The position numbers were made by a program, and so were the translations under genes. A stretch of 64,000 bases of DNA from Raillietiella orientalis (Eukaryota): NCBI GenBank assembly GCA_036172245.1, contig JAYWIR010000001.1, forward strand, positions 8,060,001 to 8,124,000. Reading direction: 5' to 3'. Shown here in pieces: positions 1,676-28,800 of this stretch. The notes beneath the pieces were generated by a model. That model did not search any database and had not been told where the DNA came from. It was given only the letters and a program-made list of their open reading frames with translations. Within the stretch, counting starts at the first letter, position 1, and the number at the start of each line of letters is the position of its first letter.

Positions 1676-1689
1676 TACTGCTGGGAAGA

Positions 1690-3294: not shown

Positions 3295-3388
3295 CGCTGC
3301 CTGATCGACCACCGAACCACACGACGCTTGCACTGGGGGAGACTTCCTGGCACGAGGAGCACCGAGAAAACACGTCCGCCCTAGAGCG

Positions 3389-5248: not shown

Positions 5249-5473
5249 AAAGATTAGGAATGTTTACTACCAAAGATCCCTGACCCCACCCTCCACTGTT
5301 TTTTTTTGTTTGTTCCCTTATGTTTTGTTTATTCTGCAGACCTCTCCCTCCGTTCCTTTCTTTTGGAAGGCACCCTGCGTGCCGGTGATCTTTCGGAACT
5401 GAACTTACTGTATGGGCGTTTCTTGTGTCTCGAAAGGATGAATTTGCCTTGAAAATTGTGGTTCGTTTTTACA

Positions 5474-5497
5474 AATAAACGTCCCGGCGCAACCGGG
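5474..5497 (+). terminator. Family 3'-terminal signal: AATAAA followed by hairpin CCCGG-CGCAA-CCGGG
   Basis: The same stem with a different loop occurs at 15402-15416 and 52392-52406, each after a T-rich 3'UTR. Confidence 0.7.
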
Positions 5498-5502
5498 TTC
5501 AA

Positions 5503-8764: not shown

Positions 8765-8845
8765 CCCAGTGGACGCACTCGGGCACACCTCACACAAGAA
8801 GACGGAAAGAAATCACGCTCGAGGAGCAACACAGAATACGTCCGT

Positions 8846-9045
8846 GCGGGCGTCGTCGTCGAGCGGATTCCCGCCATCGTCGAATGCAGCGCTAAAAAAC
8901 TCGCTGCTCCCGCTTCTCAACCCTCGGTTGACAAAGTCAACAAGGGAAGCGAGGCGGCGGCGTCCGTCATCGAGCCCACGATCGATGACTTCGCCTTCGA
9001 GCGCGCCACGGAGATGGCTGCCTCGTTGCATCCGGCCAGCCCAAG
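8846..9045 (+). pseudogene. Short ORF1 C-terminal fragment of an E1-type element
   Basis: VVVERIP...PSVDKVNKGSEAAASVIEPTIDDFAFERA matches E1 ORF1 VVVERIP...PSVDSVNSEGSEPAAASVIDTTIDDVAFARA. Confidence 0.85.
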
Positions 9046-9138
9046 GCCAGTTAGAGAACGTGTTTTTCCTTCACTCCTCAAAGAGTAGTAGGAAAGCGTT
9101 TTTCTTGTGTGGTGTTTTGTGTACATCGTCGGTGTCCA

Positions 9139-10879
9139 ATGGCCACGATGCCTGAGGACACCGCAATGGAGGTAGGCGCGGGGAAGGCTAGTTCGCCCCC
9201 ACAGCCTACTGGAGCAGGATCAGCCGCCCCGGAATCATCCCCGGCCACGCCGAGGACATGGAGTGCCATGGTGGCCGCGCCCAGCGCGGAAGCCATGGCG
9301 GAGATGGCCGCATACAAGGCCTCCGGGTACAAGCCATCGCTTGTCTACCAGGTAGGCAACTTGTTCGACGGTCGGAAAGCGCGCGCCTTTAGTAAAGCGC
9401 TGAAAGACGCGAACGTAATGGAGAAGGATCTAGACGGCCTCTCCGTCCTCAGCGGCGGGCAGAGGGTCGACGTGGTCTGCAAAGACGTCACCTTGGATCA
9501 CCGCCTAATCCATGCGCCGCTGAACGTAGACTGCCGGAAGATCCTGCCAGTGTCAATGGACCGCTCCGTGGTGGTCCACATGACTGGCATTACCAGCCGC
9601 ATGACGCGGTCAGCGGTTGGTGAAGAACTGCGCAAGTACGGTGAGGTGCACGCACTGTGCCCGAAACCCACCACTTTCGACGGCTCCGATAGCCTTTTTG
9701 GTGGTCAGGCTGCAGCGCGGGTCACCGTAAAGGAGAATTGTGGGCTTCCCCACAAACTGACGGTCGCGCAAGAAAGCGTGGACCTTTGGTACGTGGGGAA
9801 ACCACGATACTGCGGATACTGCGATCCCGTGGGACGCCTTCGTAAGAGGTGCTAACATCCAGTGCCACCTGTGCGGGGAGAAGGGCCACGTTCGGCGTGT
9901 GTGCCCGAAGCGCCCCACTCCGGTTCCCCCTGCCGCCAAACAAGCGCAGGGGAAACGTGTCTTGAAGGTCGCAAGACCTAAGGCGGAAAGTGTCCGGCAG
10001 AAGCTGCCAGAACCTCAACTTCCGGCGCAAAAGCCGGAAGATAAACCTTCCGAAGTAATGGAAGGAGAAGAGGGCTGGCAGCTTGTTGCCGCCAGAAAAG
10101 CCAAGGCCCATCCGCGAAGAATAAAGAGCGTAAGCTGGCGGGCAAATCAAAAAAACCCGGTCCGCGCTCAAAAACTCTGCGCGAGTGCACGGTGGCACTG
10201 GAACGAATCGTCGTTACCGAGGCTGCCACCCGGGGCGACGAGCCTCCCCTCGCCGTTTCCGCCGCGTCCGAGGTTCGCGACGGGAAACCCTCTGTTTACA
10301 CAGAGGGTGAGCCGCGCGACATAGCGGCGGTCGAAGCCGCGGATGCCCCGTTCGCGCAGGCAGCGGAGGAGCTCGCGGTCACGCTGGCCGACCGTGAGAA
10401 CCCCTCGCGCAAGGCCGTGCGAAGGACGGCTCCGACGAAGAAGGCCCCCACAGGTGAGTTAGACTTGGGGGCCGGAAGTACGTCCTCCTCCTCGGAGGCA
10501 CCCCCCAGGAAGTCGGGACGCATGTCCCAGAAGCCCAGGAGGCGCCTCCCCTCCACCAGCGAGGAGGAGAAGCAGGAAGGTAGCGGAAGCGTGGGAATCC
10601 CGGAGGGGGAACTCCCACACAAGCCGTCGAGCCGGCCACCCCATGGATGAGGGTGAACAGGGGGGTGAAGTCCCCCCTGCATGCGCCGACCCTGAACAGC
10701 CCGCCCCCATGGAGGAGGGCGAACAGGTAGGCGCGACCCCACCTGTGGGTGACCCGCTCGACGCGCCGTTACCTATGGAGGAGGGGGACCAGCTGCCTTC
10801 AGCACCTGACCCTCCTCCTCCACCTAGCGTCCCGCCCCAACAGGTGGCGGACGCCGCATCGCCATCTTCCCAGGAGTAA
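9139..10879 (+). pseudogene. E3 ORF1, frameshifted (element 5'UTR starts near 9050)
   Basis: RTWSAMV, GYKPSLVYQVG, LPHKL..VDLWYVG and knuckle remnants spread over several frames. Confidence 0.88.
10641..10810 (+). repeat. Imperfect 66-bp coding tandem repeat (PM[DE]EG[ED]Q, about 2.5 units) in the E3 ORF1 tail
   Basis: Unit ATGs at 10643, 10709 and 10775 give an exact 66-nt period. Confidence 0.8.
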
Positions 10880-11770
10880 CACCTGGGCTCGCCAGTCGCC
10901 GTTGTATTCGCGCGGCCTGTTGGAATGTCAACGGGCTGCGCGACGACGGTAACAGGAGAGATACAGCCGACACCCTGCGGGAGTTCGACCTGACCCTGTT
11001 GCAGGAGATCCACGTGATCACCGCGGCAGACGTCCAGGAGATCGAAACGATCGCGGGGGGTCGGCTGTACTGGCAATGCGGCATCCGCAACACCTGCGGG
11101 GTCGCGTTCTTCGTGAAGCCGGCCATCGACGCTGCCGTGAAGGGCGTGCGCTTTGATGACGACGGTCGGGTCGGTCAGCTGATTCTCGGCTGGTCCGACT
11201 CGATCGATCTGATCGTCACGAATGTGTACGCCCCCAGCGGAAAACAGAGATACAGCAACCGTACCAGGTTGCTTGAATCCCTGCAGCGCGACTGGCTGGC
11301 GAACACGAGCGTGCGGAAGGCTCACCTGATAGCGGGGATTTCAATCTCCGCCTGCTAACAGGTGAGCCGGAAACACAAGAGAACGCGATGAACGAGTTGT
11401 GCGCCGGCATGCGTGCGCGCAACTTGTTCGCGGGTGAGAGGGGAATGTACCGCAGGATCGACCACGTCTTTCTCGACGCTGAACTGTGTTCACGGGTCGG
11501 CACACGGGGGAGGATTGCGTCGACGCTGTCGGACCATTCCCGGTTAATTTTTGAGATGCGGCCTCGCGACAAGGGACCGCCATCCAGGGATTGGCGTCTG
11601 CCGGGGGACTGGAAGCGACTCTCAGGTGCGAAGGAACACCTTCGCGAATTCCTAATGGGCGTCACGCTGCAGAGTCTCTCGGATTGGGACCTTCTCAAGG
11701 CCTCGGTCGGGGAGTTCTGCGAGCAGTTCCCCCTGGACCGCCTGCCCCCCGGATTCGAGAAACCTCCTTG
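10880..11770 (+). pseudogene. E3 ORF2 endonuclease, start codon lost, frameshifted, truncated after PLDRLPPGF
   Basis: CWNVNGL, LQEIH, NVYAPSG, AG(D)FN (frameshifted), IDHVF, SDH. Confidence 0.88.
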
Positions 11771-11771
11771 C

Positions 11772-12770
11772 AACATCGCCGTCCGCGCCGACTCCATTCG
11801 CCCCGTCGTTGGGGAAGAAATCCGGCTCGAACGAGGTTCCGCAGCGGACAAGCACAAAGTCCGATTGCGCGGGCGTGTCTGGGAGCAATGCTCCTCAAAA
11901 GCCCGCGCAAAAGGACAAAAAGCTTCTCCAAGGTGCTAAAAACAAGCCCCGAGCAAAGCAGTCTGGAAAAAACCTCGGGCAGACTGCAAAACTTCCGCTT
12001 CCGTCCGCTCTCGCTCCGGAGCGAAATAGCGGTGGCACGCCCGGGAAGTCCACCGGAGCGTTGAAAAAGGGGTCGCGCGCCCCTTTGCCAGCGACAGGCA
12101 AGCCGGCCACGGCGGGCCGAACGCCAGCAAAGGCTGAAAAGCCTCGCGCGACCCGCGAGAATCCCGCCACTCTGCCCGCACCTTCCGGTAAGGAGGTGCA
12201 GAAGGCCGACGTGGCGAAGGAGACACTGGCCTCCATCGCCGTATCCGAGGCCTTGTAAAGGATGCCAAGGACCTTGGAAGCCCTCGCGCCCAACCGAGGC
12301 AAACAGGAAGGCGGCGAGGATGGCTGGACCTTCGTCGGGGGAAAGGAGCGCAAACCGCGCGATCCTTCCCACTTCACGATCAAAAAGGTAGGCGGGGTGA
12401 AGAGGCAGCCCCGCGCGCCAAGTAAGGCGCAAGGAAAAGCCCCTGCTGCCGCCGCGCGCGCCGTCGCAAACACCCGCGGCGAGAGGGGAGCTGCCGAAGC
12501 CGTGACCCCGAAAGGGGGATCGGCGACGAAGGCACCCTCTAAAAGTGCTGGACCAGATCCGGGCTGCCAGCAAAAAAAGAGGCAGGCGAAACGCCCGCCG
12601 CGCGCGCGGAATTCGGACTCCGAGGTGGAGTCCGAGGGCAGCACTAAGGCTCGCCAAGCCTCGGTCAAAGCCAGGGCTGCGCGCAAGCCAAAACTTGCCA
12701 GGAAGAGCCTGATGCCGGGAACGGTTCCCGATGCTCCTTGGAGCCCGAGGCAATGGTCCTCGATTCCACC
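11772..12770 (+). pseudogene. E2-type ORF1 C-terminal fragment inserted between the E3 endonuclease and the RT
   Basis: KKRQAKRPPRARNSDSEVESE and EPEAMVLDS match E2 KKRLAKRQSRARHSNSEVESE and ETEAMILGS. Confidence 0.8.
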
Positions 12771-15167
12771 GAGCCGGATCGTTTCAGGTTGGCGGAACCG
12801 TTCACGATGGTGGAGATCACTTCCGCCATCGCAAAGTTAAAGAAAAGGAAGACACCAGGGGAGGACGGCCTGCCCGCGGAGTTTTACCATCGCTTCGCGC
12901 CAGAGCTGGCCCCCCTGGTGCTCAGGTTAAGTACGATGATCCGCGAACACGGCGAAGTTCCCGCCTCGTTCCGGTCAGCAAAAGTACGTCTCCTGCCGAA
13001 ATCAGGAGACTTACGCAACATTGGCAACTGGCGTCCCATCACAGTAGTGAATGCGGACGCAAAGTTGTATGTCAAGTTGTGGGCTGAGCGTTTGGGGCGG
13101 GTGGCCGCTTCCGTGGTGAGTCCCGAGCAGACCTACGCTGTTCCCGGACGAACCATGGAGGCCAACCTGCTCCTCGCCAGCTCATGGTGGCAGTTGCGAC
13201 AACGCGTTGCTCAGGATGGTCAAGGGAGCCTTGCGCTTCCCTCTGACCAAGAGGATCATGCAGAGGATAGGATGGACTCGGCGGGAGCCTTTGCCGTCGC
13301 GATCGATTTGCACAAAGCATTCGACTGCGTCGACCAGGATCTCCTTCTAGAGCTCCTGGAACGCATGGGTTTCCCGTCCGTGCTCCGGTCTTAACTGCGC
13401 TCCTGCTGGCGCAACGCGTATATAAATATTGGTTTCAGCGGCCGGCACGTGTACGGCGTGCCAGTACGCCGTGGCATCCGGCAGGGTGACAGCCTGAGCC
13501 CCTTGCTCTTCAGCATCTACTTCGAGTTGGTGCTGAGGGCATACAGGGTAACTCTGGCAACTCTGCCGAGCTCCTGTGCCGGCACGCCTGCCGTGTCGGC
13601 CTATGCAAACGATCTTCTGCTGCTGCTTCCCGGGTCCACCCCGGCAAGTGCGCTCGAGGAATTCTTAGAGTTGCTGCGCCGCGGGACGGGCCTTGAGGTG
13701 AACAGGGCGAAGTCATCGATGGCTTGTGTTGGCTCGGCGTGGGCTGGACGGTCGGACTGGATCCGCTTGGGGATCCCCACGGGCAGGTGCTTCAAGTTCC
13801 TTGGCGTTCCGTTGGGGGACTTCTGCGCAGCAGAAGCCTGGTCCGACCGTCTCCAAAAGGCAGCGTTGGCGACCGTTCCGTTCCAAGAAAGCAAGTTCTA
13901 CGTGCAGGAAGGGGCCGCGGTGTGGAACGCGTTTGCGGTCCCCCTCCTTCGCCCCCTACTTTTTGTATGCCCCGCCCCTTATTTTATTCGGAAACGAGCA
14001 GCGGGCCTCCTGAGGACAGTCCTTTAGGGCAAAGGGAGGTCCCGTGTGAGGCTCAAAGACTTGTGCGCTCCACGTAAGGACGGTGGACTTGGCGTACTTA
14101 CGCTGGAGCGCATGGAACTGCAACTCCAATTCAGGACTCTCGCCCTCGCGGCCGAATTGTGGGACACGCCTTGGAGCGTTCCAGCACGCTCCCAACGAGC
14201 CTGCGGATCCGGCGGACTTTTGTCGTTTCTGTCTGCGCGCGTCTGCAGAAGAGCACACTGTGGCTCTATGCTGCGACGCATCTTCGTTGCGGTTCGGGAG
14301 AACGCCTGGATCTCCTGCCTCCCAGGGAACTACTCTGCCTGGTTGCACGAGTCAGTCTCCACCTGGGAAAAGATCTACGTACCGGCGGGCACAAGGAACA
14401 CTTGCCTGAAAAGGCACGCCCGCTGGACGCTGCAGGAGATCGTGCAGTCCCACGACAAGCTTCTGTGGGCCTTGATAACCCCCCTCGCCCCAGTGCTGCG
14501 CTTCCATGTGAATGCCAGGGACAGTAGCGAGCAGGGGAAATGGACCGTGTCCTGCACCATAGTCGGCAGGACACAATCGATAAAGGCGTGGACATCTCAG
14601 CAGCTAGCTGACGCTGCGACGCCGAGTGTCCCGCGCAACGGAATTCGACGCTGGGGCGAGCTACTCGGACTATCTCCGGAGGAGATGAAGTGGCCCCCAG
14701 CGTCCTGGAACAGTGCATCCCTCCCCCTGAAATGGTAGGATGTGGCGTTGCTTGTGGTACTCTGGGGATTACCATTCAAAGCACGCCTGCACCACACCAC
14801 CCGGGGGGCTGTGGATCCTAATTGTGACCGGTGTGGGGAAAAAGAAACATTCCCCCACCTTCTCCTTGAGTACAGCGCCCTCCGCCCTTTGTGGGATCGT
14901 CTCGCGGCGATCCTGGACTTGCACGGATGCGGCGCAAAGGACGTTTTAAGGCGCCTCTTCTGTAGTGACGCCTTGTCCCCGCCCGCTAGGGTAGCAGTCC
15001 TCTGCTGCATCAGAGGAATAGTGGCGGCTTGGAACGGCACCAGAAGAAGGCGTCAGCCAACCGGCAACGCCTTACACCGGATTCAGCTTTTCGCGCGCAG
15101 TGTCTGCAAGTGGCGCCACTTAGGCGCTGAAAGGACTCAGCTTGTGCGGATCCTGAATAGGATCTAG
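12770..15167 (+). pseudogene. L1/Tx1-like ORF2 RT to C-terminus with in-frame stops and YADD changed to YAND
   Basis: PGEDGLPAEFY, NWRPIT, IDLHKAFD, GIRQGDSLSP, YAND, DGGLG, CDRCGEKETFPHLL; stops at 13394, 14027 and 14738. Confidence 0.93.
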
Positions 15168-15392
15168 AGGACCTGTCCACGCGCACCGTGATCCCTTCCC
15201 CGTCCTCCCACCCCTACAACATTTGTTCCCCCCCACATTTGAACTTTTTGTTTCTTTTTGTTTTTCTTTATTTCCCATCCCCGCGCATCGGAAGGACCTC
15301 TCCAGCATGGAGCCGCTAACCAGCAAGCTGTTTTGGAGTGGTGAACCTTCGGGTTCGCCATGCGACATTTCGATGTAATTTTATTTCAATGA

Positions 15393-15416
15393 AATAAATG
15401 CCCCGGCACATCCGGG
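15393..15416 (+). terminator. Family 3'-terminal signal AATAAA + CCCGG-CACAT-CCGGG
   Basis: Homologous to 5474-5497 and preceded by a GAACC-TTCG-GGTTC hairpin at about 15343-15356. Confidence 0.7.
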
Positions 15417-15429
15417 TGTGAATCGCCAC

Positions 15430-16444
15430 GGCGCGCGCGAGGACGGACGTGCTTTTGTGGTGCTCCGCGTTTTTCTCGCGAGTGGTCTCTGTGTTTTAGG
15501 TTTGAGCGGTTGTTCCTGGGCAGAGATGCCCGAGGACGCCGCCAAGACGGCGGAGGGGGGCGAGCGAGCCTCGTCCCCCCAGCCCATGTATGGGGGGCAT
15601 CTCCCCCACGGAATCGTCCCCCGCCCCGGAGAGAGCTTGGAGCGCGGTGGTGGCGGCGCCTGCGCCGCCCCCCGCAGAGGGACAGAGGGCGTATATGGCC
15701 GACGGGTACAACCCGGCCCTGCTTTATAAGGTAGGTGGCCTATACTCCCCCGCGGTCTTGCGGTCCTTCGCCGCGGAATTCAAAAAGTTAAAAGTCCCGG
15801 AGGAAGAAGTCTTTGGGCTTTCGGTAAGAAGTGGCGGGCAGCTTGTTGAGCTAAACTGCAAGTCTGCAGGGATGGCTAAACAGCTGCTCCGCCTGCCGGT
15901 GAGCGTGAACGGGAGAAGAATTTTCCCGTTCACGGCGGACAATTCCATCGTTGTCCACCTCACCGGTATAACCATGCGAATGGCAAAGACCGCCGTTCGC
16001 AAAAGTCATGAAAAGTTCGGGACGGTCCACGTGTTGTGGGCAAAACCCAATCTCCTGGGTTACACCAGGGCTTTTAGTGGTTACGCCGCTGCCCGCGTGA
16101 CCGTCCGAACCGAGGGTGTGCTACCCCACAGACTACAGGTCGGAGAAGAGCATATCGACCTGTGGTATGTGGGGATACCCGTGTACTGCGGCTTCTGCCA
16201 GGTGTCGGGGCTCCTGAAAAGAAAATGCCCCAACATCGTGTGCCTATGCTGCGGTGAGAAGGGACACATCAGGCGGATGTGCCCCCAACGCAAGAGGCCC
16301 GTTCGAGTAGGCGAAAACAAGGAAGTGCCGAAGGAACAGGGCAACAGCCAGCAAATGGTAGAGTCCCGCCCTGCCCCCCAACCTGCTCCTCAGTCATCCT
16401 CCAGCACCGAACCAGCTGGAGAAAAAGACGAGCGTTACCCGTAA
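15430..16444 (+). pseudogene. E4 5'UTR and ORF1 (ATG 15526, frameshift near 15590), truncated at the viral cluster
   Basis: GGACGTGCTTTTGTGGTGCTCC 5'UTR motif; RAWSAVV, GYNPALLYKVG, CGFCQVSG..C, CLCCGEKGHIRRMC. Confidence 0.88.
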
Positions 16445-16625
16445 AGATAAGGAAAATAATGAGCACATGCAATACGGCTTCATCGAAAGTTCGAAAAATG
16501 TAATCACTTCTGATTCCATATACCAGGGAAGTCTCAAATACTTTCAGCCTCTTCACATTATCTGCTTTGCTAATTGGCAGCCTGACTTCGCAAAACTTTC
16601 CACTGACAGATGGATCATTCATAAC
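16445..16625 (+). pseudogene. rep: Endogenous CRESS-DNA virus Rep 1, C-terminal SF3 helicase fragment
   Basis: QYGFIESSKN...YQGSLKYFQPLHIICFANWQPDFAKLSTDRW contains motif C and the arginine finger; homologous to the three other Reps. Confidence 0.85.
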
Positions 16626-16976: not shown

Positions 16977-17471
16977 GTGATGCAGGACGAGATGAATAGA
17001 GGGTCAGATAACTGCGCAATCTGGGTAATACTGACCAGATTGCGCAGTTATCAGTCTAACTACGCAGTTAAATTTGTTGATATGAAGTACAGTGATCGCA
17101 TGAAGAATTTAGCTTGGCATCAGAGGAAGAGGACTTCCTTTTTTTATAAATTTAAAGAAAGAGATGTGTCTGTGTACTGTAGAAGTTGTGTTGAAAAGCA
17201 GTCTGTAGTGACATCTAAGGGTGATTCTGTGATATATTATCGATCTAAATGTCCTTGGCTTAGTACTGAAAAGCAAACTGAAATGAGCTCTTATGTGTTG
17301 ACTGGTCATTCTATAATAGCGAAGCATGTAGTGGGATTCAAGGTTCCAGCTGAATGGACTCAACAGAAAGCTATCCAGGAAAATAATGTTATTCAAAAAA
17401 ATGCTCCAATGTTTAGAATTTGGAGAAAATTTTATTCGCAATTCAAAGGGCTTAGGGATATAAGATATTAA
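16977..17471 (+). CDS. Putative CRESS/circovirus-like capsid protein (C-terminal part)
   Basis: Lies between Reps. KCPWLST and terminal FYSQFKGLR resemble C-terminal motifs of circovirus-like capsids (recognised from memory, not searched). Confidence 0.45.
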   Translation: MMQDEMNRGSDNCAIWVILTRLRSYQSNYAVKFVDMKYSDRMKNLAWHQRKRTSFFYKFKERDVSVYCRSCVEKQSVVTSKGDSVIYYRSKCPWLSTEKQTEMSSYVLTGHSIIAKHVVGFKVPAEWTQQKAIQENNVIQKNAPMFRIWRKFYSQFKGLRDIRY

Positions 17472-17640
17472 CGTCCTGAAGAACACATACTACTTATTGG
17501 ATATTTGGTTGTTCTATTTGATTCATTAATGAAATGCACAATCCATCTGTCTGAAAACATCTTTTCATAATTTGGATCTGTGTTAGTATATAAGCCACCA
17601 AACATCCGATCCACAGTCACACCATTAGTGAATTACCAAC

Positions 17641-18560
17641 ATGCCTTATGAATTTTTTTTTCAATTGATGCCTTACATTGTATAACTACTCCGAAAACTT
17701 CAGAGCTATCAAACAATGGTGCAGATGCAACTGCCACTTTGCCTGTATTGGCAGAGAAACGGCAGATACCGGTACACCGCACTACAGGGCTACTTGTTAT
17801 TGAAGGAACCGAGGAGAATGCCTGGTTTGCACCGAAAGCCTTTTCACAAGTGTCACCTGGAAAAGGCAAAAGGTTCACCTCAGAGCAACCTGAAGTACTG
17901 CACCAAGCAGGACAAAGAAGCATGGGTTTACGGAGCACTGAACGAAGACGCAGAAGCAAAAGCTTATGAAGAACAAGCAAACTGCGTAGTTGACTATTTC
18001 AAGGTCATTTTCTTTTCAGATCCTACAACTCATCGAAAATGGCGCAGGCGAACAGTTCATTCTCAAGCACCATACGAAGTTTTACGCAAAGAACATCAAC
18101 TTTACAAAAGAATGTTTCCGATTATCCCGCAGCAGAACACATCCCGACCCACTCGCTCATCTTCAGCTCAAAGAATGGCAACTTAAAATCTTAGACATTA
18201 TACGACATCAACCTCACGAGAGTAAAATATATTGGTTCTACGACCCAGCTGGTAACGCCGAGAAGAGAAGGATGGCCAAATTTCTCTTCCTTAAAAAAAA
18301 GGCCATCTACATGCATTCCTGCAGGAAGGCCGATGCGGTATATCTACAACGGAGAATTATCTCACTGACTTCACCCGGGACAACCAGGAACATGTGCAGT
18401 ATGGATTCATAGAAAGCCTAAAAAACGGTATCATCTTCGACGGCAAGTATCAAGGCTCCATTAAATACTTTGAGCCACCACACATACTGGTTTTCGATAA
18501 TTGGGAACCAGACTACAACAAAATGTCAACGGACAAAGACGGATTATCAATAACATCTCC
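17641..18560 (+). pseudogene. rep: Endogenous CRESS-DNA virus Rep 2, full length and frameshifted
   Basis: Motif I CLTLYNY, II TP(H)LQGY, III YCTK; WFYDPAGNAEK (decayed Walker A), DFTRD, YGFIESLKNG, GKYQG, PHILVFDN. TATATAA at 17587. Confidence 0.92.
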
Positions 18561-19279: not shown

Positions 19280-19830
19280 CAACCCGTAAGACTCAACACC
19301 TACAGGATATAGTGTACAAAACCTATACTTGACCTAACAAGAATACTGCAGAAAACATAGCTAGCCCATTCCAGTTCGATGAGAGGTTAGTGGTTCAATT
19401 GTTCGTCGAAATGGGTATCATCACGATGGAGCACCATCAGAATCAACGTCTCCTTGTGATCATATCGATGCAAAGAACCAAACCAACGTGATATGCACTG
19501 GTACGCTGACTACCAGGAAAACAGCGGAAAAACCATTATTGCAAAACACATCTACATAAACTACCATGCGATCTACCTAACTGCAAGAAAGCAGACTCAT
19601 CCTTCATGAACAACGTAGAAAAAGGTAGAAACGTCATCATGGACTTGACTAAAGGCCACGCAAGAAACAGTAAACTATGGACTTATTGGAACCATAAAAA
19701 ATGGTATATGCTCTATGAAATACCAAGGGCACGTAAAGCTTTATAATCCACCTCATGTCATGGTATTCGCAAATACAGACCCGAACTACAAGATGTCGTC
19801 TGACATTTGGATTGTTCACTTCATTACTGA
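19280..19830 (+). pseudogene. rep: Endogenous CRESS-DNA virus Rep 3, internally deleted
   Basis: HLQD and YCRK remnants; WYADYQENSGKT (Walker A), VIMDL, VNYGLIGTIKNG, KYQG, PPHVMVFAN. Confidence 0.85.
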
Positions 19831-20000
19831 ACACAATAAGAACAAATTATTTTATAAATCTGGAATCAAAAGTACAAGCCGCTGATATCGTACATTAAAG
19901 AGATGTAGTTCTACATCCCGTAAAAGCAAAATAAAATCCTGTAAATAATCCAAACAAAGTTTACTTTTTTTAATTTCCAGTATGGGAAACTATTCCAGTT

Positions 20001-20056
20001 TTTTGTCGGTTCTCACGAACACTGACTAGATTCAGTGTTCGTGAGAACCGACAAAA
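20001..20056. repeat. Perfect 25-bp inverted repeat with 6-nt spacer CTAGAT
   Basis: Arms TTTTGTCGGTTCTCACGAACACTGA (20001-20025) and TCAGTGTTCGTGAGAACCGACAAAA (20032-20056). Confidence 0.97.
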
Positions 20057-20566
20057 TGTTCATGCCTTGCTATCTATGAACAGCTATTGCTTATCTAAAA
20101 ACCCATTGAGTAGTACCTGAAGCGACATATAAGTGTTGATGCCAGTCCAGCTACATAAGCAACGTTTACCCAGTACCATTTAGATGAAATGGAACTACTG
20201 TGCCTCCATGGACTGTACAGTCTGTTTCTGTATGGTGTTATGCACACTCGTAATGCTGATGGAGAAAATGTTGATGTTGATTGCAATCTCACAGCTGAGT
20301 CAACGGCATTTACTCATAATCAAGTTTCACGTTTGACTACTAGTACCAAGCAGTGGACTAAATAGGTGTTCATATTGCTCCTATCCACCAAAACATTATT
20401 TCAACAAAACATTATTTGCAGTATCCATCTAGCGGGTTCCTATCATCTATCCTAAAACCAGTCATAAGAGGGGAAACCAATTGGGGTTCATAACAATCTT
20501 CATACTAATGCCTTTTAGTCTGACAGGTGTTTAATTGAAAGTGACTTGAGGCAGTAATTGCTCGAT

Positions 20567-21305
20567 ATGGCTGACCAGTTTGAGCAAGAAGCTGAAACCA
20601 ATTACGACCGATTCTCGGCAGCTTTGCCAGAGCTATCGAGCTCGGTCAGACAACTGACACGGACATTGCGTTGCCAGAAGACAAAAAACTCACCCGTATA
20701 CCTGCCTACCAACCAAAGTGCGTTCATAAAAAACGTTGCAGCTTCCGCTATTGGCTGGTTATACCAGTCCAAGTATTGGAAAGATGCAGCACTCACTCTT
20801 ATGATAAACGGTATATATGCGCTATTCACATATGACATGATAAGATACCGAAAAATTAACCAGCACTTGGTGCCCGATGGAGATTGGCGCCCAACTGGGA
20901 ATAGACGAGATGACAAACGCACAAAGTACAGGAGGCTTGGCACAAATCAATAAACAAACAGCAGTGAACTGTATGGTTCTAGTGATTGCGACAAAAGTCT
21001 CATGGTGGTTGACGAATCACCATGTGGACGTGCGTAAAGATCAAACCAAAGGAGCTGGTTTTCCGCTCAAAGTGTGAAAAGCTCTGTTCGACAAAGTCAC
21101 TATGTCGGATGAGCGAGGTATGGAGATAGCCTACACCTTAGGGCATTATTGTAGCACCCTCCGAATTTTGGAACTAGCAGAGATGCAAGGCATATTGGAA
21201 TCCTTCGGGATAGGAACAGTTGGTGCACCCCCTAAACCTGTCACAATCTCGCAGGATGCCTTGATGAGATTTCAGTCTCCTGCTGGGACTCATCGCCCAC
21301 ATTAG
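20567..21305 (+). pseudogene. Probable endogenous qinvirus-like (-)ssRNA virus nucleoprotein, disrupted (the frame may extend back to about 20100)
   Basis: Ordered blocks IATKVSWWLTNHHV, GFPLKV, TLGHYCSTLRIL and DALMRFQSPAGTH match my recollection of the qin-like N signature ATKxxWWxTNHH...GHWxST...DAxLR..PAGTH. No introns. Confidence 0.5.
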
Positions 21306-21408
21306 AAAACAAACAAGAAAACCAAAGGAAGACTTCCCGACGACAAACTAGACCTACCATCCCAATGATCATAAACAGTTTTATTGCCAATTAAAATTTC
21401 TAGTTACT

Positions 21409-23250
21409 TTAAACAAAAAATTTCATCATACACTTTCGATGAACCCTCCATCGTCGAGCCTTTTTTGTTTTCAGAAGCCCTTTAGCCATTGATTCATCAA
21501 CTCTCCACGACTTCGGGTCGGTAAAGCCGGCAACATGCCTCACCAAATAACGTAAACTCCTAGTATTCACTTTCACCTCCATGCCACTATCAGTGTCAAA
21601 TCGAGGACACTTTAGACGAACAGCCTGAGAACCACCTTCCATCGTTCGAACCACTACCACCCGAGGAGTTGCATACATACTCCTACCACCCGACCGAACA
21701 CTGTTACAAAAACAATGAGCCTATACTTTTAACAGATATAAGAATAGTGTGATATCATTAGCACACCAACTCAACACATCGTGGCTGCGGTTTCACCATA
21801 CAAGCTTCTCAAGATTCTATACCCAATTCTGCACTCGTTAGAAAAATACTTCTCCACTGCGCGCCCTACATCCGGAAGCAGCGCAGATCTACAATCCAAA
21901 ATATGTTTATTGGCTATCTTCGCGGCTAACACCTCTGCCACTTCTCTACACATTAGAATCACGTCTGCATCCATAGAAGTCACTCAGCGTCTGAACAACC
22001 TTGCTTAGGCTCCACTCGATCTATCACCTTCGTTACAATAAGTTGTTCTTTTTCTCACTTGCCATTCGAACTGCCACGTGGGAAACCTAACCATGAATCA
22101 TACATTGCTTAGCTCTACACCTTGTCACCATGTCTTTTTACGCAGCCACGATTTCACTCCTTTTTCAGACTCGAAATATTTTTTCGCAAATTGTATTCTA
22201 TCCAAATATTCCAACTGCGGCAATGAGCGACCCAGGTTTCTGGAATGACGACACGAAAATCCTTAAACCTAGCACAGCTTGGTCGATGCTCTATACCACG
22301 ACACAAAGCTCCTTCTCACCAACATTCTAAATAGCACAGTATCGTTTAGGATTCTTTGGAAACTCCACAAAAATAGTTATGAAATTTTCATCAACAGTCC
22401 TCTGCGTGCGCACATCCTGGTCCACCGCTTTCCAAGGTATTATAGACAACCTCATTTCATTAGAACAGAAAACGAGAAATCTACGTGGGGCGGTGAAAGC
22501 AGCTAGGGAAATATGCAAACATTATAACAGCACACAAAGCACCAGGCTTCACAATAGTTGTCGATGTGCTGTTCTAGTACCTATTCCCCTCAAAAGGACG
22601 CAGCCCAAAACTGAATCGAGCTGATCACATGAACAATGAAAGAACTTTGCTCCTAGATATACTCCTGATTTCTTCAAGCAGTACATAACACCTTCTTTAC
22701 CCACCTTTGCGTATTTTCCGTATTTAATCACTCCGCTCTAGCTTGCAGATTCCAACACAGCATTCTGTAACAAACGAAACACATATTTTATGCTACGGAA
22801 CGCTTCCCCATCGGGCAACATTCCTTCCAGCCAGATCCCAACCGGCGAACGAAAAGCACTCATTCTACCTCCTATTGTCAAAGCAGACTGGAATTGTTCG
22901 ACCAAACATAACGCTTTTCTTCCGCCTTCATCGTGTTACGACCAGATATTTCCAGGAACCTCAAGTGCTGCATTCGACCACCATACAACGCAGGTTTGTT
23001 GCCGAGATATTTCCAAAGCCGCCATCGATTCCTTTACCTCTACAAATTCATTTCGGTGACTAACAACGCATGTGCACTTCTCACCGTCTAAGACCGACAC
23101 TTCACGTTAGCAAAGGCTACGAATTTCAATCAGCGCCCAAGGCAATCAATCACCTCCACTTTTCTAGCAAAGCATCGCAACGCTCAAAATAGCAAAATGT
23201 GGATTCTGCACCTACACATTCAACACAGGAGCTAGGAATCAAGGGATCCA
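21409..23250 (-). pseudogene. Long intronless decayed ORF (about 600 codons) of unknown, possibly viral, origin
   Basis: One frame reads from about 23100 to about 22050 with scattered stops, then continues via frameshifts to the stop at 21409. A minus-strand AATAAA lies at 21380-21385. Confidence 0.45.
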
Positions 23251-23507
23251 TTAACAACCTACGTATTTGGGTGTCGACAAGCTCAGATTCGAGCTACGAT
23301 GCGCACAACTGAACTCCACTTTCAGCAGCCCTCGAAATTTCCCACAACCTACACATTGCGCAACATTGCTGCTTCAACTGAGGAGTTGCTATGGTATGAT
23401 CTCATGATGCATAGTTGCCCAACGTTCAGCAGCATGCAAGTCACGAAAACCCCAGGCCCATGGCCATCTACAAGTAAATAACTCGATGCGCAACCTGCTA
23501 AACCAAA

Positions 23508-23533
23508 TTCCTTACAGGCTAGCCTGTAAGGAA
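23508..23533. repeat. Perfect 26-bp palindrome centred on CTAG
   Basis: TTCCTTACAGGCT|AGCCTGTAAGGAA. Confidence 0.95.
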
Positions 23534-23788
23534 AACAGCATCAAAGCATCAACAGCATATTCTTTTGCCAATGAAAGCTTCCTGGACTTGAAGTGAACCA
23601 CCATAACACCACACACCAATGACCTTATATGGGGACTGCAATTCGAGTGCAAGAGGAGTGAATTCTACTCCAATCAACTTGCCACATGTACTAAGCTGTG
23701 GATAACAATACTGATAACCACCTGGCCACCGAAAATTTGTATAAATACTCACTATGCACACCATGCTTTTCAGAAGTACGCAAAAAGC

Positions 23789-24690
23789 ATGCTTTACGCA
23801 CGTTACCCAAACTGGTGCTTCACCATAAACAACTGGACAGAAGATGAACTCACTCGCGTCAAGCAGTGGTGCAAACACGCAACCTTCGCAATCATCGCGA
23901 AGAAAGCAACCACTATCGATACGCATCACCAGCAAGGATGCATGCAATTGCATGAACCTCTCATGCTGCCGCAAGTGCGAAGACCGCAGCTCAAGCGCTC
24001 TCACTTGGAGCACGCAAGAGGTTTAGCCAACGCTAACCTTCAATATTGTGAAAAAGATATGCATTCATGCAACACTCGACCAAAACCCTAACGACAATTA
24101 CGAACGCCGGGTAAGAAAGCAATACACTCGCATTAGTAACATCTCTTTAGTCCAGATACTTCGCCTCATACAATCCGACAAATCAGAAAATTTTATCTTG
24201 GAAAATTATACAAAATTTTATTCAAGGGACATTCAGTTCATCAAGGAGTGCTTTGGCCTCTACAGAGCGAAGCACTTCCCGAACCCAATGGCGATTCTAC
24301 AGTTACGGCAGTGGCAACACAAAGTTCTGAATATACTCTCCAAACCACCACATCACCGAGAAATATACTGGATCCTGAACGAACGAGGAAACGGGGCAAG
24401 CCTACGTTGACAAAATATCTCTTTCTCAGACGTAACGCAATTTATCTAGAAAGTTGCAACAAGAGCAACGCAGCCCATAATGGAGAGCCCATAATAGTCA
24501 TTGACTTTACAAGAGACAACCACAAAACCATTCAATACGGCTTCATTGAGTGCTTGAAAAACGAAATCATCTTTGATCCTAAATATCAATAAGATACTTC
24601 GACACTCCACACGTCCTAGTTACGGCCAACTGGGAACCAGACTACATCAAACTAAGCACTGATCGATCGAAGATCATCAATATAACTAGC
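23789..24690 (+). pseudogene. rep: Endogenous CRESS-DNA virus Rep 4, full length and frameshifted
   Basis: WCFTINN (I), HQQG (II), YCEK (III), RGN/GK (frameshifted Walker A), IVIDFTRD (Walker B), YGFIECLKN, PHVLVTAN, LSTDR. TATAAATA at 23740 and AATAAA at 24765. Confidence 0.93.
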
Positions 24691-24784
24691 TCCAGCAGAA
24701 AGAAACCTCCTTCATTATGGAGAATGATGGCAACATTATCCTATATGTCAAACCAATAGAAAGTAATAAAGACAACTAAATTAA

Positions 24785-25800
24785 TCAACTTCTTTTTATT
24801 AGCACAGCACCTGCAGCTCTCCAAGTCGCATTAGCCTGCCTAGCTGCATCTCTGCTTCCTCTAAACAAAAAATATTTCTTTTTCACATGGTACACCAACA
24901 TTCCTGCTTTCAGAACTCCTGTGTCTGGACATACTGCAGACTGACAATGTGCCTCAAAATCATCAGGTATATCCTGACCAGATATATACTTCATCAATGT
25001 TACATTTTCATAGCTGGCACTGACAGTTAACTCACCACTCAAATTATTTATTATATTATTGTGGAATTTGGAGCAAAGTACTCGAAGCCAACACTTGCAC
25101 ATCCCCTCATCCATGCTCGAAACCATTCAATACGTAATTCACCTTTCCCATCAGTTCTTGGATGCAATTCCTACTACACTACACCCCAATCATTATCCAC
25201 GTCACCTTCCACTTGACACCCTCAGCCACCAGACATCATCTAAGGCAATGAAGTAAGACACTTCCTTATCTCTTCTCAAGGAACTGATTATGAACTGATT
25301 ACCCTGACCCATTCCGATTTGGAACTGCAACTTTAAAAGACAGCAAACACAGATAACCTTTAGGTGAACTTCCAAGTGAACAGTGCACAACCACAGCACT
25401 CACCATTTCCCTAACTGTTGCCAACTTTGCACTTTGCGGGGCTTGTTCTAAATGCGTACTCTTTTCAAGAGCGTTTTCCATGAAAAAGGAAATAGAAGCG
25501 CACCCGACATTTCCGTATCATGTCCAAGCAGCCCTCACATCAAACAGGATGTCATCTCACATGAATCTTTCCTGGAGACACTGCAACACCAGATGTCGCT
25601 TTCACCAAGCAACATGCATGGTTACCCAACCCTGTGTCTGGATAAGTGTGCATTACAAAGCAGTTCGGCCAAATGCACATCCCTGTACTGCACATCTCAT
25701 AAACACAGCGAACCCTGCTGTCACAAAGCATGGGATGAGCAAAAACCCTGCAATTCTCAATACTTTCACAGTGCTGCAAAAACAATTCTAGCATTTCCAC
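24785..25800 (-). pseudogene. Decayed unknown ORF convergent on Rep 4
   Basis: Series of minus-strand ORF pieces ending at 24785, with minus-strand AATAAA at 24795-24800 facing the Rep 4 AATAAA. Confidence 0.35.
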
Positions 25801-28800
25801 AACCTCTCCTACTGAAATCTATTACCTGCCCAAGTCTTACTGAACCATCTAATCAAAAGAATCAAAACCTCAAGACTCACCTCTTCTTTTTCCATCCAAG
25901 GACTCTTCTTTCAAGAATCAGCCAGCAAAACGAACAGCAGGACGTGTTAAGAGCACAGCAAACGTGCTAGGAGAAACCAACGCAAAACGCACTTCACAAA
26001 TTCGGTAATTCCCAATTTTTTGCGTTTCCATGGCTGCGAAACAGCGACATTCCATGTGACTGCTCGCTTTAACCCCTTCCTTTATTCCATATTACTTTAA
26101 GGGAAACCACAAGAATTCCGGCACTCCCTTCTTTCCAGATTCACACAGAAACTTACAAAAGAAAAAAAAAACTACTTACTTTGCCATCTACTGAGCACTG
26201 CTAACCGCGCCTTTCTTCAGACATCGAACATCACCCTATTAACAATTCGAATGATTCCATGCTTTGCCACGTTACGACTCCAGCATCCACACAACCTTCA
26301 GCCACAACTTTTGTCCGCAGCCACATTTCTTCACGGTTTCCAAATCGAAAGTTGCAGGAGCTTACACTCTGCAGCTTACGCTCGCACTTCACCTTTCCAT
26401 CATCCACTTCACATCGAATTCAGTTCTGGAATGATAACGGAAGAGCTCCCATGCACATCCGTTCCGCAACGACTTCCACCGGCAAGCGCATGAGCCAACC
26501 TTCGCTCTTCCGATTCTTCCGGTGCGCTTCAAGATGTGCATTTCTACGCAAGACCGCTAACCCAATGTCCAGTCACAAAAAGTTTAATTTCACAGCAACT
26601 TTTCATTGCACACAAACATTTAAAGCATGAGCTGGAATAACGGACGTCACAAGCTATGCAAGCTGATTATGTATATTCAATTCAGCTCAAAATACGGGTG
26701 GAATTAGAGCAGCAATGGATGAATTCGGCACGAATATCTTGTTAATTCTGATAAAAGCAACACCGGAATAAGTTTAAAACAAGGTTTCTGTATCCAAATT
26801 AGGCGTAACACGCACAGATATGGAAATCAATTAAGGAATCTTCACAGAGGTAATTGACTGCCTATGTTGTCTACAGGACATTTCCCTTCCTGCCTTCCCC
26901 TGATTGCACACTTCCTAAATGCCCCAATCTTTTGTGCCTCAAGTTCAATAAGCTTCGCGTGACGATAACATTTCAGAGAATTCAATGCAACCAAATTGAT
27001 GCTGCGTTCTAAATCTGCGCAAGCAAGTTTCCGATAAAAGTAACTCAGGCAGTGGATTCGAATTCGCTTATTGGTTCGCTCTTCCCAATGTCCGCTGTTA
27101 CCTCTCCTTGTCTTTTGCTTTAAGTTCTGCCTCCTCTGAACGGCATGTGCTGAGCTCTTGCTGGAGTGTGAGAACGCTTACTCACACGGGGCTTGTGAAG
27201 TGCTTCGAAACCATATGAGCTCTCCAGCTGCTCTCTGGCTCAACCATCACGCGATATGCGTTGGCATGTGTCGAAGGGTCAGAAGCACCAACAACAAAAT
27301 TAAGAGATCGCCATCTCCTTCTTCGGACCAATTCCATGTTGATCCATGGGATGCGCATGCTTGCCCCACTACTCAAAGATGGACGCCACGTACCAGCAAT
27401 GCGTTCCCGCATACCGTCTCGACTGCGTTCCCGAAAGAGGAATCGCTTCGGATAGCGCAATGGGTGCTGGCAGGGAATGAAGACTGCATCGGAGGATTCA
27501 GCGCGCACGCGTGCTAGTGCACGCAAGCAGTGGTGCTGCTGCAGACGCTTCCGCTTCCATCGCACCCCCCGCATTGCTCAGCTGCGCATGCGCCTCTTCG
27601 CTCCGCACTAGCACGGATGCACTGCAGAGTGTGTGCGGCGATGAGATGGAGGCAGACATGCGAACGACAGGGAAAGTTCCGCTTCCTCAGACGGGCTCTC
27701 CGATTTTCATCTTCCTCTCAAACCATGCTGCCTGCTCGTCTTTCGTGGCCGCTATTGCCACTTGGTGGACCCGTGCGAGCGTGGCACTTTCGACGGACGC
27801 TCCAGAAGCCAGATGTTGCCCTTGCAGTGCGATAAACAAAAGGTACATCTGATTCATCCCATGCAATGGAACATTTCCTGTGCCTCTAGCATTCTGGTCG
27901 CATTTTGCTAACTATATCTGGATCCTTGTAGCGAAAACAACCCTATGCAATCGCGACCAAAGACCAAAGCCGTACACACAGCTTTCATTTTCAGCCTCTC
28001 CCGAGCGCTGAAATGGCGAGGTCATTTTCACCGCCGTCATCAACAAGGCGGAACTCTATGGAATCGTTTCAGTCGCAAAAAAGGAATGATAGCAGAGCGT
28101 GACAAAAAAAATTCGTTTTCTTCTCTACCACCGCGACGCCATGGAGACGAGTAAGAAATCCTTCTTTTAGAAGGAGTACACTTCATAATGGCAAGAGAGT
28201 TCGAGTTTCTTATGCTTTCCGTTGAAAGGCTCCCAAAGAATGTCCACTCACCTCGCAAATCTGTACACCGCGCATTGGATCGCGAAGAGTAGTCTCCATG
28301 CGAGATTGAAGACATCGGATCAATGCAATGGATTTTTACCACTCTTTGAGAATGAAAGTTTTGTTCACAAATTCATTCTTCAGAAGAGCACTGGCATTGC
28401 AAATATCAATATACATGCAAGGATATCACTATACACATGCTCACATCAATACAAATACAGTACATACATGTGGACAATGAGCAACACATATCGGCATCAG
28501 CGTACAATATGCCTGTGAAATACCCAAAGTGTACTTTTCTGTTTCAGGTTTTTGAAACTCCACAGTTTTTCTTTGCTCAACTTCTCATCGGTCATGTGAC
28601 TAGGTCCATGACTCTCATCGAAGACAGTTTTCACATGCCAAGTGCTATCGCCGCTTTTGAGATAGCCTTCATGTCATTGAAGGTATCTCCATCCGTGCTT
28701 CCATTCTATCGTCACACCGGTAAACTGACTTCTTTCTCCTTTACTCCCTGATGTCTGCAATGAAATGGTACTTGTGGCGATGCACGAGCCGCTGTTTCGA

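What the first reader, a model, noticed from the sequence alone, without database searches (positions are those of the whole stretch)
20060..21305. Qinvirus-like nucleoprotein gene sitting among ssDNA virus Reps
The motif order ATKVSWWLTNHH / LGHYCST / DALMRF.SPAGTH recalls qin-like (-)ssRNA virus N (recalled, not searched). An RNA virus gene needs reverse transcription, and the adjacent LINEs could supply it. Alternatively it is cargo of a chimeric Rep replicon, analogous to cruciviruses but with a negative-strand N, since it follows Rep 3 and a perfect hairpin in the same orientation.
Basis: inference. Interest (0 to 1): 0.7.

Follow-up and report, generated by a model that had tools for sequence, protein, structure and literature searches.

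The report
Decayed qinvirus nucleoprotein fossil beside Rep fossils
A broken, half-length copy of the nucleoprotein gene of a qin-like negative-strand RNA virus lies in a eukaryotic chromosome among broken ssDNA-virus Rep genes; it is an ordinary viral fossil, with no sign of a hybrid virus.

Summary
Window 20567-21302 (+) encodes, across four reading-frame stretches with one in-frame TGA, the N-terminal ~55% of the Qinviridae segment-2 protein (putative nucleoprotein). A local profile of 82 family members matches it at E 1e-34. 104 library proteins match at E<=1e-3, and named members include Wuhan insect virus 15 and Linepithema humile qinvirus-like virus 1. The window keeps 16 of 17 near-invariant family columns within the covered part. 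The C-terminal 45% is absent. Homology stops at 21299, where an A-rich tract begins and strand composition changes sharply. Five CRESS-type Rep fragments surround it, 41-71% identical in their aligned pieces, with one canonical origin hairpin at 17007-17052. The hairpin beside the N fragment has no origin nonamer. The best reading is a pseudogenised non-retroviral endogenous viral element, made from viral mRNA by a host reverse transcriptase in a transposon- and fossil-rich region. This is a new member of a known kind.

The parts
20567..20631 (+). Probable start codon and first residues of the N-like reading frame (frame of 20558). The frame breaks somewhere near 20610-20635.
   Evidence: Read directly from the translation. 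The printed family members that are whole at the N-terminus also begin M-A. This stretch has no statistical support on its own.
20632..20703 (+). N-terminal family motif, in the frame of 20596. It includes a 7-residue stretch identical to one in P0010.
   Evidence: Profile positions 15-48, 4.7 bits, weak alone but collinear. The near-invariant columns G19, D25 and L34 are kept.
20705..20908 (+). N-like fragment, profile positions 35-100, back in the frame of 20558.
   Evidence: 27.0 bits, E 9.6e-11 at Z=1; i-E 5.5e-07 in the six-frame search.
20907..21074 (+). N-like fragment, profile positions 101-152, in a third frame. It holds the ATK..WW.TNHH motif.
   Evidence: 43.8 bits. Columns K137, N144, H145 and H146 are kept; G148 is not.
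21075..21077 (+). In-frame TGA stop inside the N-like frame.
   Evidence: X67 = TGA.
21087..21299 (+). N-like fragment, profile positions 157-225, with the GH..ST and DA..RF..PAGTH motifs. This is the last homologous stretch.
   Evidence: 59.6 bits, E 1.3e-20 at Z=1. Columns G180, T185, D215, R219 and P224-T227 are kept.
21303..21330 (+). A-rich tract (19 A in 28 nt) directly after the end of homology. It may be a decayed poly(A) tail.
   Evidence: for window sizes of 16-32 nt, only 5-7 places in 64 kb are as A-rich. The threshold was chosen after seeing the tract.
20159..20362 (+). Possible second, more decayed N-like fragment (profile positions 56-109). Unproven.
   Evidence: 6.5 bits; E 0.23 among 1338 pieces, ranked fourth after the three true pieces; i-E 0.1 in the six-frame search.
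20001..20056 (.). Perfect 25-bp inverted repeat with a 6-nt loop (CTAGAT) between the Rep fragment and the N fragment. Origin unexplained.
   Evidence: I1; -29.8 kcal/mol, z -11.3; no CRESS nonamer.
19475..19885 (+). CRESS Rep fragment, C-terminal part only, just upstream.
   Evidence: tblastn with the window's other Rep pieces. It is 51% identical to Rep1's C-terminus and no N-terminal endonuclease part was found.
17686..18560 (+). CRESS Rep pseudogene (Rep1), spread over three frames. Context, not part of the N element.
   Evidence: Pfam Viral_Rep 2.8e-05.
23790..24705 (+). CRESS Rep pseudogene (Rep4), spread over three or more frames, inside the G-poor block. Context.
   Evidence: Pfam Viral_Rep 4.5e-09, 5.4e-09.
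16434..16622 (+). Rep C-terminal fragment (R0). Context.
   Evidence: 58% identical to Rep1's C-terminus.
17471..17620 (-). Rep C-terminal fragment on the opposite strand. Context.
   Evidence: 51% identical to the 19649-19882 piece, E 1.6e-08.
17007..17052 (-). Origin-like stem-loop: perfect 18-bp stem, with a 10-nt loop holding CAGTATTAC on the minus strand. Context.
   Evidence: -21.3 kcal/mol, z -9.8. It is the only NANTATTAC match in 15-27 kb.

Best explanation
Window 20567-21302 is a non-retroviral endogenous viral element. It is a DNA copy of the 5' part of the nucleoprotein (segment-2) mRNA of an unknown qin-like negative-strand RNA virus (Qinviridae and relatives), fixed in the chromosome of an intron-bearing eukaryote and since decayed. 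Shown: it is homologous to the qinvirus protein family. It covers only the N-terminal ~55% of that protein. It is broken by frame changes and one stop. It lies in host DNA between LINEs and host exons. It sits among five separate CRESS-Rep fragments. Inferred: viral mRNA was reverse-transcribed by a host retroelement enzyme and inserted. The A-rich tract at the 3' junction suggests priming on a poly(A) or A-rich end, as in LINE-type retroposition. The Rep fragments arrived by separate events, so the neighbourhood is a region that accumulates transposons and viral fossils. It may be a small-RNA (piRNA) source locus. The fragment no longer encodes a protein, and any present activity would be at the RNA level.
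For: Family membership: 104 proteins matched at E<=1e-3, best 2.7e-12. Named members are 'Putative capsid, Linepithema humile qinvirus-like virus 1' and 'hypothetical protein, Wuhan insect virus 15'. The local profile matched at i-E 1.1e-34 and 5.5e-07, and 16 of 17 near-invariant columns in the covered part are kept. Family fold: a model of the Wuhan insect virus 15 protein (pLDDT 92.8) matches seven qinvirus-like BFVD entries at E 2.6e-21 to 4.5e-13. Three of these are named nucleoprotein or nucleocapsid. Mononegaviral N proteins follow weakly. Decay: four frame stretches, a TGA at 21075-77, and nothing for profile positions 227-408. Host context: LINE RVT_1 and Exo_endo_phos ORFs at 1-14 kb, a CLN3 exon near 53.6-54.1 kb, and a Cation_efflux piece near 28.4-28.7 kb. 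Separate origin from neighbours: cumulative G-C is flat over 19.7-21.3 kb, then falls steadily from 21.3 to 26.6 kb. The break coincides with the end of homology. Rep fragments are only 41-71% identical in their aligned pieces. Retroposition hint: a 19/28 A tract at 21303-21330, a density reached at only 5-7 places in 64 kb. Precedent: genome-encoded family members exist in ants and Bemisia tabaci on megabase contigs. A qinvirus RdRp fossil is reported in Camponotus floridanus (PMC6540820, passages read). piRNAs map to qin-like sequences in sea lice (PMC10287012, passages read).
Against: No target-site duplication was found: no shared k-mer of 8 nt or more between 19800-20600 and 21300-21450. 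LINE-type retroposition usually truncates the 5' end, whereas here the 5' end is kept and the 3' half is missing. The A-rich threshold was chosen after seeing the tract, and the downstream block is itself A- and C-rich. No small-RNA or expression data could be consulted, so the piRNA idea is inference only. Same-strand orientation of 5 of 6 virus-derived fragments is not significant (about p 0.2 by my own two-sided count). The host organism was not identified. The window's fragment sits on a long branch (1.62) with no supported sister and at most 37% identity, so its donor lineage within the family is unknown.
Confidence: 0.85

Rival explanations
1. Chimeric replicon. A CRESS-type Rep replicon captured a negative-strand RNA virus nucleoprotein gene, as cruciviruses did with a tombus-like capsid. 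Rep fragment, hairpin and N would then be one integrated unit.
For: A Rep C-terminal fragment (19475-19885), a perfect hairpin (20001-20056) and the N fragment (20567-21302) follow each other on the same strand within 1.9 kb. Cumulative G-C is roughly flat over 19.7-21.3 kb. A genuine CRESS origin hairpin elsewhere in the cluster (17007-17052) shows that more than bare rep genes were integrated here.
Against: The hairpin loop is CTAGAT and lacks any NANTATTAC-type nonamer. The Rep piece lacks its endonuclease half and the N piece lacks its C-terminal half, so no functional unit is preserved. Most family members lie on 1.2-3 kb contigs and the named ones are RNA viruses. Pfam found no family at E<=0.01 in 102 of the 104 homologues, and only two stray sub-threshold hits (neither to a Rep family) in the other two. 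A literature search for 'cruciviruses' plus 'nucleoprotein' returned 2 papers whose listed titles and abstract starts do not concern such a chimera (listing only). Five Rep fragments, 41-71% identical in their aligned pieces and in both orientations, point to repeated independent insertions.
Confidence: 0.03
2. The N-derived DNA arose by template switching of an LTR-retrotransposon reverse transcriptase, the episomal viral-DNA route described in mosquitoes and flies, rather than by LINE target-primed reverse transcription.
For: The fragment keeps its 5' end and is cut at the 3' end, with a possible second partial fragment just upstream (20159-20362). That patchwork structure fits template switching better than LINE retroposition does. 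Papers on Aedes fossils associate them with LTR retrotransposons and piRNA clusters (listing and abstract starts only: PMC5497376, 10.1101/127498, PMC7161354).
Against: No LTR-retrotransposon domains (integrase, gag, protease) were found, either in ORFs of 125 aa or more across the window or in the six-frame scan of 16-30 kb. The A-rich tract at the junction fits poly(A) priming better. The second fragment is not significant.
Confidence: 0.1
3. A co-opted, still functional host gene derived from a viral nucleoprotein.
For: 16 of 17 near-invariant columns are kept. Intact-looking genome-encoded relatives are annotated in ants.
Against: There are frame changes, an in-frame TGA, loss of the C-terminal 45% and no continuous ORF longer than 131 aa.
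Confidence: 0.02

Closest known systems
Qinviridae segment-2 protein (putative nucleoprotein/capsid), e.g. of Wuhan insect virus 15 and Linepithema humile qinvirus-like virus 1
   Same: Significant sequence homology over profile positions ~15-226. The same motif order is present, and 16 of 17 near-invariant columns are kept.
   Different: It is DNA in a chromosome, not an RNA segment. Only the N-terminal ~55% is present, and the frame is broken. Identity to any member found is at most 37%, on a long unsupported branch.
Genome-encoded qin-like N copies in ants (Formica fusca, Temnothorax americanus, Wasmannia auropunctata, Lasius niger) and Bemisia tabaci; qinvirus RdRp fossil in Camponotus floridanus (PMC6540820)
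   Same: The same virus family is integrated in a eukaryotic genome (PMC6540820, passages read).
   Different: Several of those are annotated as continuous proteins of 336-373 aa, whereas this one is fragmentary. The host here is unidentified, and this copy is not close to them (35% identity to P0010 and P0120).
Non-retroviral RNA-virus nucleoprotein fossils in general (bornavirus-, rhabdovirus- and chuvirus-like N elements), from established knowledge
   Same: An N mRNA from a negative-strand virus was copied into DNA, sits in repeat-rich DNA and is pseudogenised.
   Different: The donor family is Qinviridae. A poly(A) tail and target-site duplication are not clearly preserved here.
Cruciviruses (CRESS Rep plus RNA-virus capsid chimeras)
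   Same: An RNA-virus structural gene sits next to a CRESS Rep on one DNA strand.
   Different: Here both genes are fragments. There is no nonamer origin between them, no circular molecule and no recurrence. The structural gene is a helical nucleoprotein rather than the jelly-roll capsid that I recall for cruciviruses.

Membership tests
Qinviridae segment-2 (nucleoprotein) protein family | Significant sequence similarity to proteins of named qinviruses | tested here: met
   (104 hits, best 2.7e-12). One search gives named members P0055 and P0117 in the same family. Searches give profile i-E 1.1e-34.
Qinviridae segment-2 (nucleoprotein) protein family | Conserved motif columns of the family alignment | tested here: met
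   16 of the 17 invariant or near-invariant columns within residues 1-227 of the reference are kept; G148 is changed. Four further columns (H273, A276, L279, P316) lie in the missing part.
Qinviridae segment-2 (nucleoprotein) protein family | Full-length protein with both halves (about 370-450 aa) | tested here: not met
   Profile positions 227-408 have no match in any frame of the window. It is a derived fragment, not a member gene.
Qinviridae segment-2 (nucleoprotein) protein family | Nucleoprotein fold like that of mononegaviral N (a property of the family, tested on a full-length member) | tested here: inconclusive
   The model is confident (pLDDT 92.8) and matches qinvirus-like BFVD entries strongly. 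Against solved structures, 0 hits reach E<=1e-3; the top hits are rabies, HMPV and Nipah N at E 0.097-0.4 and TM 0.30-0.37. PMC10888975 (passages read) places Qinviridae NP models in the Haploviricotina structural cluster.
Non-retroviral endogenous viral element | Virus-derived sequence contiguous with host DNA | tested here: met
   LINE ORFs, a CLN3 exon and a Cation_efflux exon piece lie on the same 64-kb stretch.
Non-retroviral endogenous viral element | Retroposition marks: poly(A) tail and target-site duplication | tested here: inconclusive
   An A-rich tract lies at the 3' junction. No flank repeat of 8 nt or more was found.
Non-retroviral endogenous viral element | Presence at the orthologous site in related hosts, or an empty site in others | not testable with these tools
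   No eukaryotic genome collection was on hand.
Crucivirus-like chimeric CRESS replicon | Rep with endonuclease motifs and helicase in the same unit | tested here: not met
   The adjoining Rep piece matches only the C-terminal part of the other Reps. There is no Viral_Rep Pfam hit at 19.4-20 kb.
Crucivirus-like chimeric CRESS replicon | Origin stem-loop with a nonanucleotide in the loop | tested here: not met
   The loop of the 20001-20056 hairpin is CTAGAT. The only NANTATTAC match in 15-27 kb is at 17033 on the minus strand.
Crucivirus-like chimeric CRESS replicon | Recurrence of Rep+N on circular DNA contigs | not testable with these tools
The prokaryotic genome-contig scan found no relatives.
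piRNA cluster / fossil-accumulating locus | Small RNAs of 24-30 nt mapping to the locus, mostly antisense to the viral genes | not testable with these tools
   No small-RNA data. The only indirect support is the co-location of six virus-derived fragments, five on one strand.

The most novel reading that the evidence does not exclude
The Rep fragment, hairpin and N fragment are the wreck of a single integrated DNA replicon that had captured a negative-strand RNA virus nucleoprotein. That would be a second, independent kind of RNA-DNA chimeric virus besides cruciviruses. A milder version is that this locus is a dedicated trap (piRNA cluster) archiving both ssDNA and negative-strand RNA viruses. 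It would also give direct germline-infection evidence of a host for Qinviridae, a family whose hosts are largely unconfirmed (PMC11108086, passages read).
Probability: 0.03. Interest if true: 0.85.

Novelty: new member of a known kind. Interest (0 to 1): 0.3.

Why it matters
Qinviridae are known almost only from metatranscriptomes. One paper I read in passages (PMC11108086) says that only trypanosomatids were confirmed hosts. A chromosomal fossil of their nucleoprotein shows that a qin-like virus once replicated in the germ line of this host lineage, and it adds a deep, lone branch to the family. The neighbourhood holds five CRESS Rep fragments, a preserved origin hairpin and an RNA-virus fragment within 9 kb. 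That makes it a candidate small-RNA source locus for anyone who has small-RNA data for this organism. Otherwise the element is an ordinary pseudogenised viral fossil.

Tried and rejected
- Pfam on the three window pieces gave no family, apart from a stray sub-threshold PspAA hit at E 0.026.
- Pfam on all 104 homologues gave no real family, only two stray sub-threshold hits.
- A sequence search of the PDB gave nothing meaningful, either with the window piece or with the family profile.
- The listing of cluster members on ten homologues did not complete. Names therefore came only from the search for homologous proteins.
- The search for homologous proteins with the window piece and lengths 'longer' found no hit at E<=1e-3 among 108 candidates. 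This is a limit of word-based search, because phmmer did find relatives.
- The missing C-terminal half was sought downstream of the G-poor block and everywhere else in the window, and was not found.
- No DNA-level repeat links the N region to any other part of the window.
- No target-site duplication was found.
- Rfam found no RNA families and no tRNA genes were found, so there is no help with host identity.
- The ESM Atlas search on a 172-aa ORF of the G-poor block (25452-25967) gave no usable hit.
- The genome-contig scan (prokaryotes) with the family alignment gave 25 pattern matches, none of them a relative.
- The tree (quick method, 107 rows kept of those with at least 250 aa and at least 70% of the 210 columns filled) gave no supported sister for the window.
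- The 20001-20056 hairpin was considered as a CRESS origin and rejected, because its loop has no nonamer.

Full report
**What is there**

Pfam had no family for this piece or its two upstream neighbours.

phmmer of the 143-residue piece against 1.84 billion representative proteins returned 104 proteins at E<=1e-3 and 4 at E<=1e-10, best 2.7e-12. These are mostly 370-480 aa long and match at their residues ~115-235. Pfam found nothing real in any of the 104; two carry stray sub-threshold hits.

A word-based search starting from one full-length hit (P0010) supplied names:
- 'Putative capsid, Linepithema humile qinvirus-like virus 1'
- 'hypothetical protein, Wuhan insect virus 15'
- genome-encoded copies in Formica fusca, Temnothorax americanus, Wasmannia auropunctata, Lasius niger and Bemisia tabaci
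- many unnamed members on 1.2-3 kb contigs

**Extent and state of the fragment**

I built a profile (408 positions) from 82 full-length members and searched the six-frame translation of the whole window, stops read as X. The matches are:

| Profile positions | Window coordinates | Frame | Support |
|---|---|---|---|
| 15-48 | 20632-20730 | frame of 20596 | 4.7 bits, weak |
| 35-100 | 20705-20908 | frame of 20558 | 27.0 bits |
| 101-152 | 20907-21074 | third frame | 43.8 bits |
| 157-225 | 21087-21299 | same third frame, after the TGA at 21075-77 | 59.6 bits |

- The combined domain covering positions 101-226 scores i-E 1.1e-34.
- A probable start codon lies at 20567. The printed family members that are whole at the N-terminus begin M-A, as this frame does.
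- Nothing in any frame of the window matches positions 227-408. The C-terminal 45% of the protein is absent.
- Of the 17 invariant or near-invariant family columns that fall in the covered part, 16 are kept.
- The element is thus a 736-bp, 3'-truncated fragment with frame changes and one internal stop.
It ranks just below the true pieces. It may be a second, older fragment, but this is unproven.

**What the family is**

An AlphaFold2 model of the Wuhan insect virus 15 protein, built with an 86-sequence alignment, is confident (pLDDT 92.8, pTM 0.90).

Foldseek against BFVD finds seven qinvirus-like proteins at E 2.6e-21 to 4.5e-13. Three are named nucleoprotein, nucleocapsid or putative nucleocapsid. 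A yue-like protein follows at 5.9e-4, then a long series of mononegaviral nucleoproteins at E 0.015-0.3.

Against solved structures no hit reaches E<=1e-3. The top hits are nearly all N proteins of rabies virus, HMPV, Nipah and relatives, at E 0.097-0.7 and TM about 0.30-0.38.

A preprint read in passages (PMC10888975) places Qinviridae NP models in the structural cluster of Haploviricotina nucleoproteins. 'Nucleoprotein' is therefore a reasonable functional name for the family, though it rests on prediction.

**Placement**

In a quick maximum-likelihood tree (107 rows, 210 columns) the window's fragment falls inside the large group that holds Wuhan insect virus 15, the ant-associated clade and the Bemisia copies. 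It sits on a long end branch (1.62), with no supported sister and at most 37% identity to any member. The donor virus is an unsampled lineage, or the copy is old, or both.

**Surroundings**

- Bases 1-16.4 kb are GC-rich (about 61%) LINE copies with RVT_1, Exo_endo_phos and zf-RVT hits, some on ORFs of 468-647 aa.
- Host exon pieces (CLN3, Cation_efflux) lie further downstream.
- Between 16.4 and 24.7 kb there are five CRESS-type Rep fragments: 16434-16622 (+), 17471-17620 (-), 17686-18560 (+), 19475-19885 (+, C-terminal part only) and 23790-24705 (+). Their aligned pieces are 41-71% identical to one another.
- A perfect 18-bp stem at 17007-17052 carries CAGTATTAC in its loop on the minus strand. 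By my recall this is the canonical CRESS origin nonamer, and it is the only such match in 15-27 kb.
- The perfect 25-bp hairpin next to the N fragment (20001-20056) has the loop CTAGAT and no nonamer. I cannot explain it.
- No Mononeg_RNA_pol, integrase or gag domains were found.
- No RNA families or tRNAs were found.

**Junctions**

Homology ends at 21299. From 21303 runs an A-rich tract (19 A of 28). For window sizes of 16-32 nt, only 5-7 places in the 64 kb are as A-rich. I chose the threshold after seeing the tract.

At the same point the strand composition changes. Cumulative G-C is flat from about 19.7 to 21.3 kb, then falls steadily to 26.6 kb. That G-poor block (G 16-18%, C 26-28%) contains Rep4.

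No repeat of 8 nt or more links the two flanks.

**Mechanism**

The best-supported account is the usual one for non-retroviral fossils. Viral N mRNA was copied into DNA by a host retroelement reverse transcriptase and inserted into repeat-rich DNA, followed by decay.

The A-rich tract is compatible with priming on an A-rich or poly(A) end, and LINE enzymes are encoded nearby. However, the kept 5' end, the missing 3' half and the lack of a target-site duplication do not fit a textbook LINE event. Template switching by another retroelement, or later rearrangement, remains possible.

The Rep fragments differ too much from one another, and one is inverted, so they are not one unit. I read them as separate insertions. 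The concentration of six virus-derived fragments in 9 kb, five on one strand, resembles fossil-rich piRNA clusters described in mosquitoes (listings and abstract starts only). piRNAs from qin-like sequences were reported in sea lice (PMC10287012, passages). No small-RNA data were available here, and the orientation bias is not significant.

**The chimeric-replicon idea**

Adjacency and shared orientation are its only support. The points against it are:
- The Rep piece lacks its endonuclease half.
- The N piece lacks its C-terminal half.
- The hairpin lacks a nonamer.
- Family members are otherwise on short contigs, or named as RNA viruses.
- Pfam matched none of the 104 homologues to a Rep family.
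- A search for 'cruciviruses' plus 'nucleoprotein' listed only 2 papers, whose titles and abstract starts do not concern such a chimera.

The prokaryotic genome collection held no relatives. I put this reading at about 3%.

**Novelty**

- Qin-like N copies in insect genomes already sit in public databases.
- A qinvirus RdRp fossil is in print (PMC6540820, passages).
- My searches listed no paper whose title or abstract start describes a qinvirus nucleoprotein fossil. I did not read every listed paper, and supplements were not consulted.

This is a new member of a known kind. It is of modest interest, mainly as host evidence for an obscure virus family and as a marker of a fossil-accumulating locus.

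**What stayed unchecked**

- Host identity.
- Names of most homologues (one search did not complete).
- Neighbours of homologues on their contigs.
- Small RNAs.
- Orthologous loci.

Noticed in passing
window 17007-17052 (-): A perfect 18-bp stem with a 10-nt loop containing CAGTATTAC, the canonical CRESS-DNA virus origin nonamer. It lies between Rep fragments, so non-coding origin sequence of a circular ssDNA virus was integrated and is still perfectly paired.
   Followed up: partly
window 21300-26600 (+): A 5.3-kb block with strong strand asymmetry (G 16-18%, C 26-28%, GC skew about -0.2 to -0.36). It begins exactly where N homology ends and contains the Rep4 pseudogene. No repeats, Pfam hits or Atlas hit explain it. 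It may be a single foreign element or a strand-biased mutation footprint.
   Followed up: partly
window 20001-20056: A perfect 25-bp inverted repeat with a 6-nt loop, no nonamer, no flanking duplication and no other copy in the window. Its perfection contrasts with the decay of the genes around it.
   Followed up: partly
window 16434-16622 (+), 17471-17620 (-), 17686-18560 (+), 19475-19885 (+), 23790-24705 (+): Five CRESS Rep-derived fragments, 41-71% identical to each other in their aligned pieces, within 8.3 kb. Three are C-terminal pieces only and one is inverted. This suggests repeated or rearranged ssDNA-virus integrations.
   Followed up: partly
window 1-16400: GC-rich (about 61%) LINE copies in both orientations with long open frames (468-647 aa). 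CpG observed/expected is about 1.0, so these are possibly young elements in a genome without CpG depletion. A CCHC zinc-knuckle ORF (15506-16441) ends where the first Rep fragment begins.
   Followed up: no
window 20159-20362 (+): A weak, collinear match to profile positions 56-109 of the same nucleoprotein family, upstream of the main fragment. It could be a second, older partial copy.
   Followed up: partly
window 53599-54117 (-) and 28356-28748 (+): Host exon-like pieces: CLN3 (Pfam 1.3e-07) and Cation_efflux (3.8e-04). They show the window is chromosomal DNA of an intron-bearing eukaryote.
   Followed up: no
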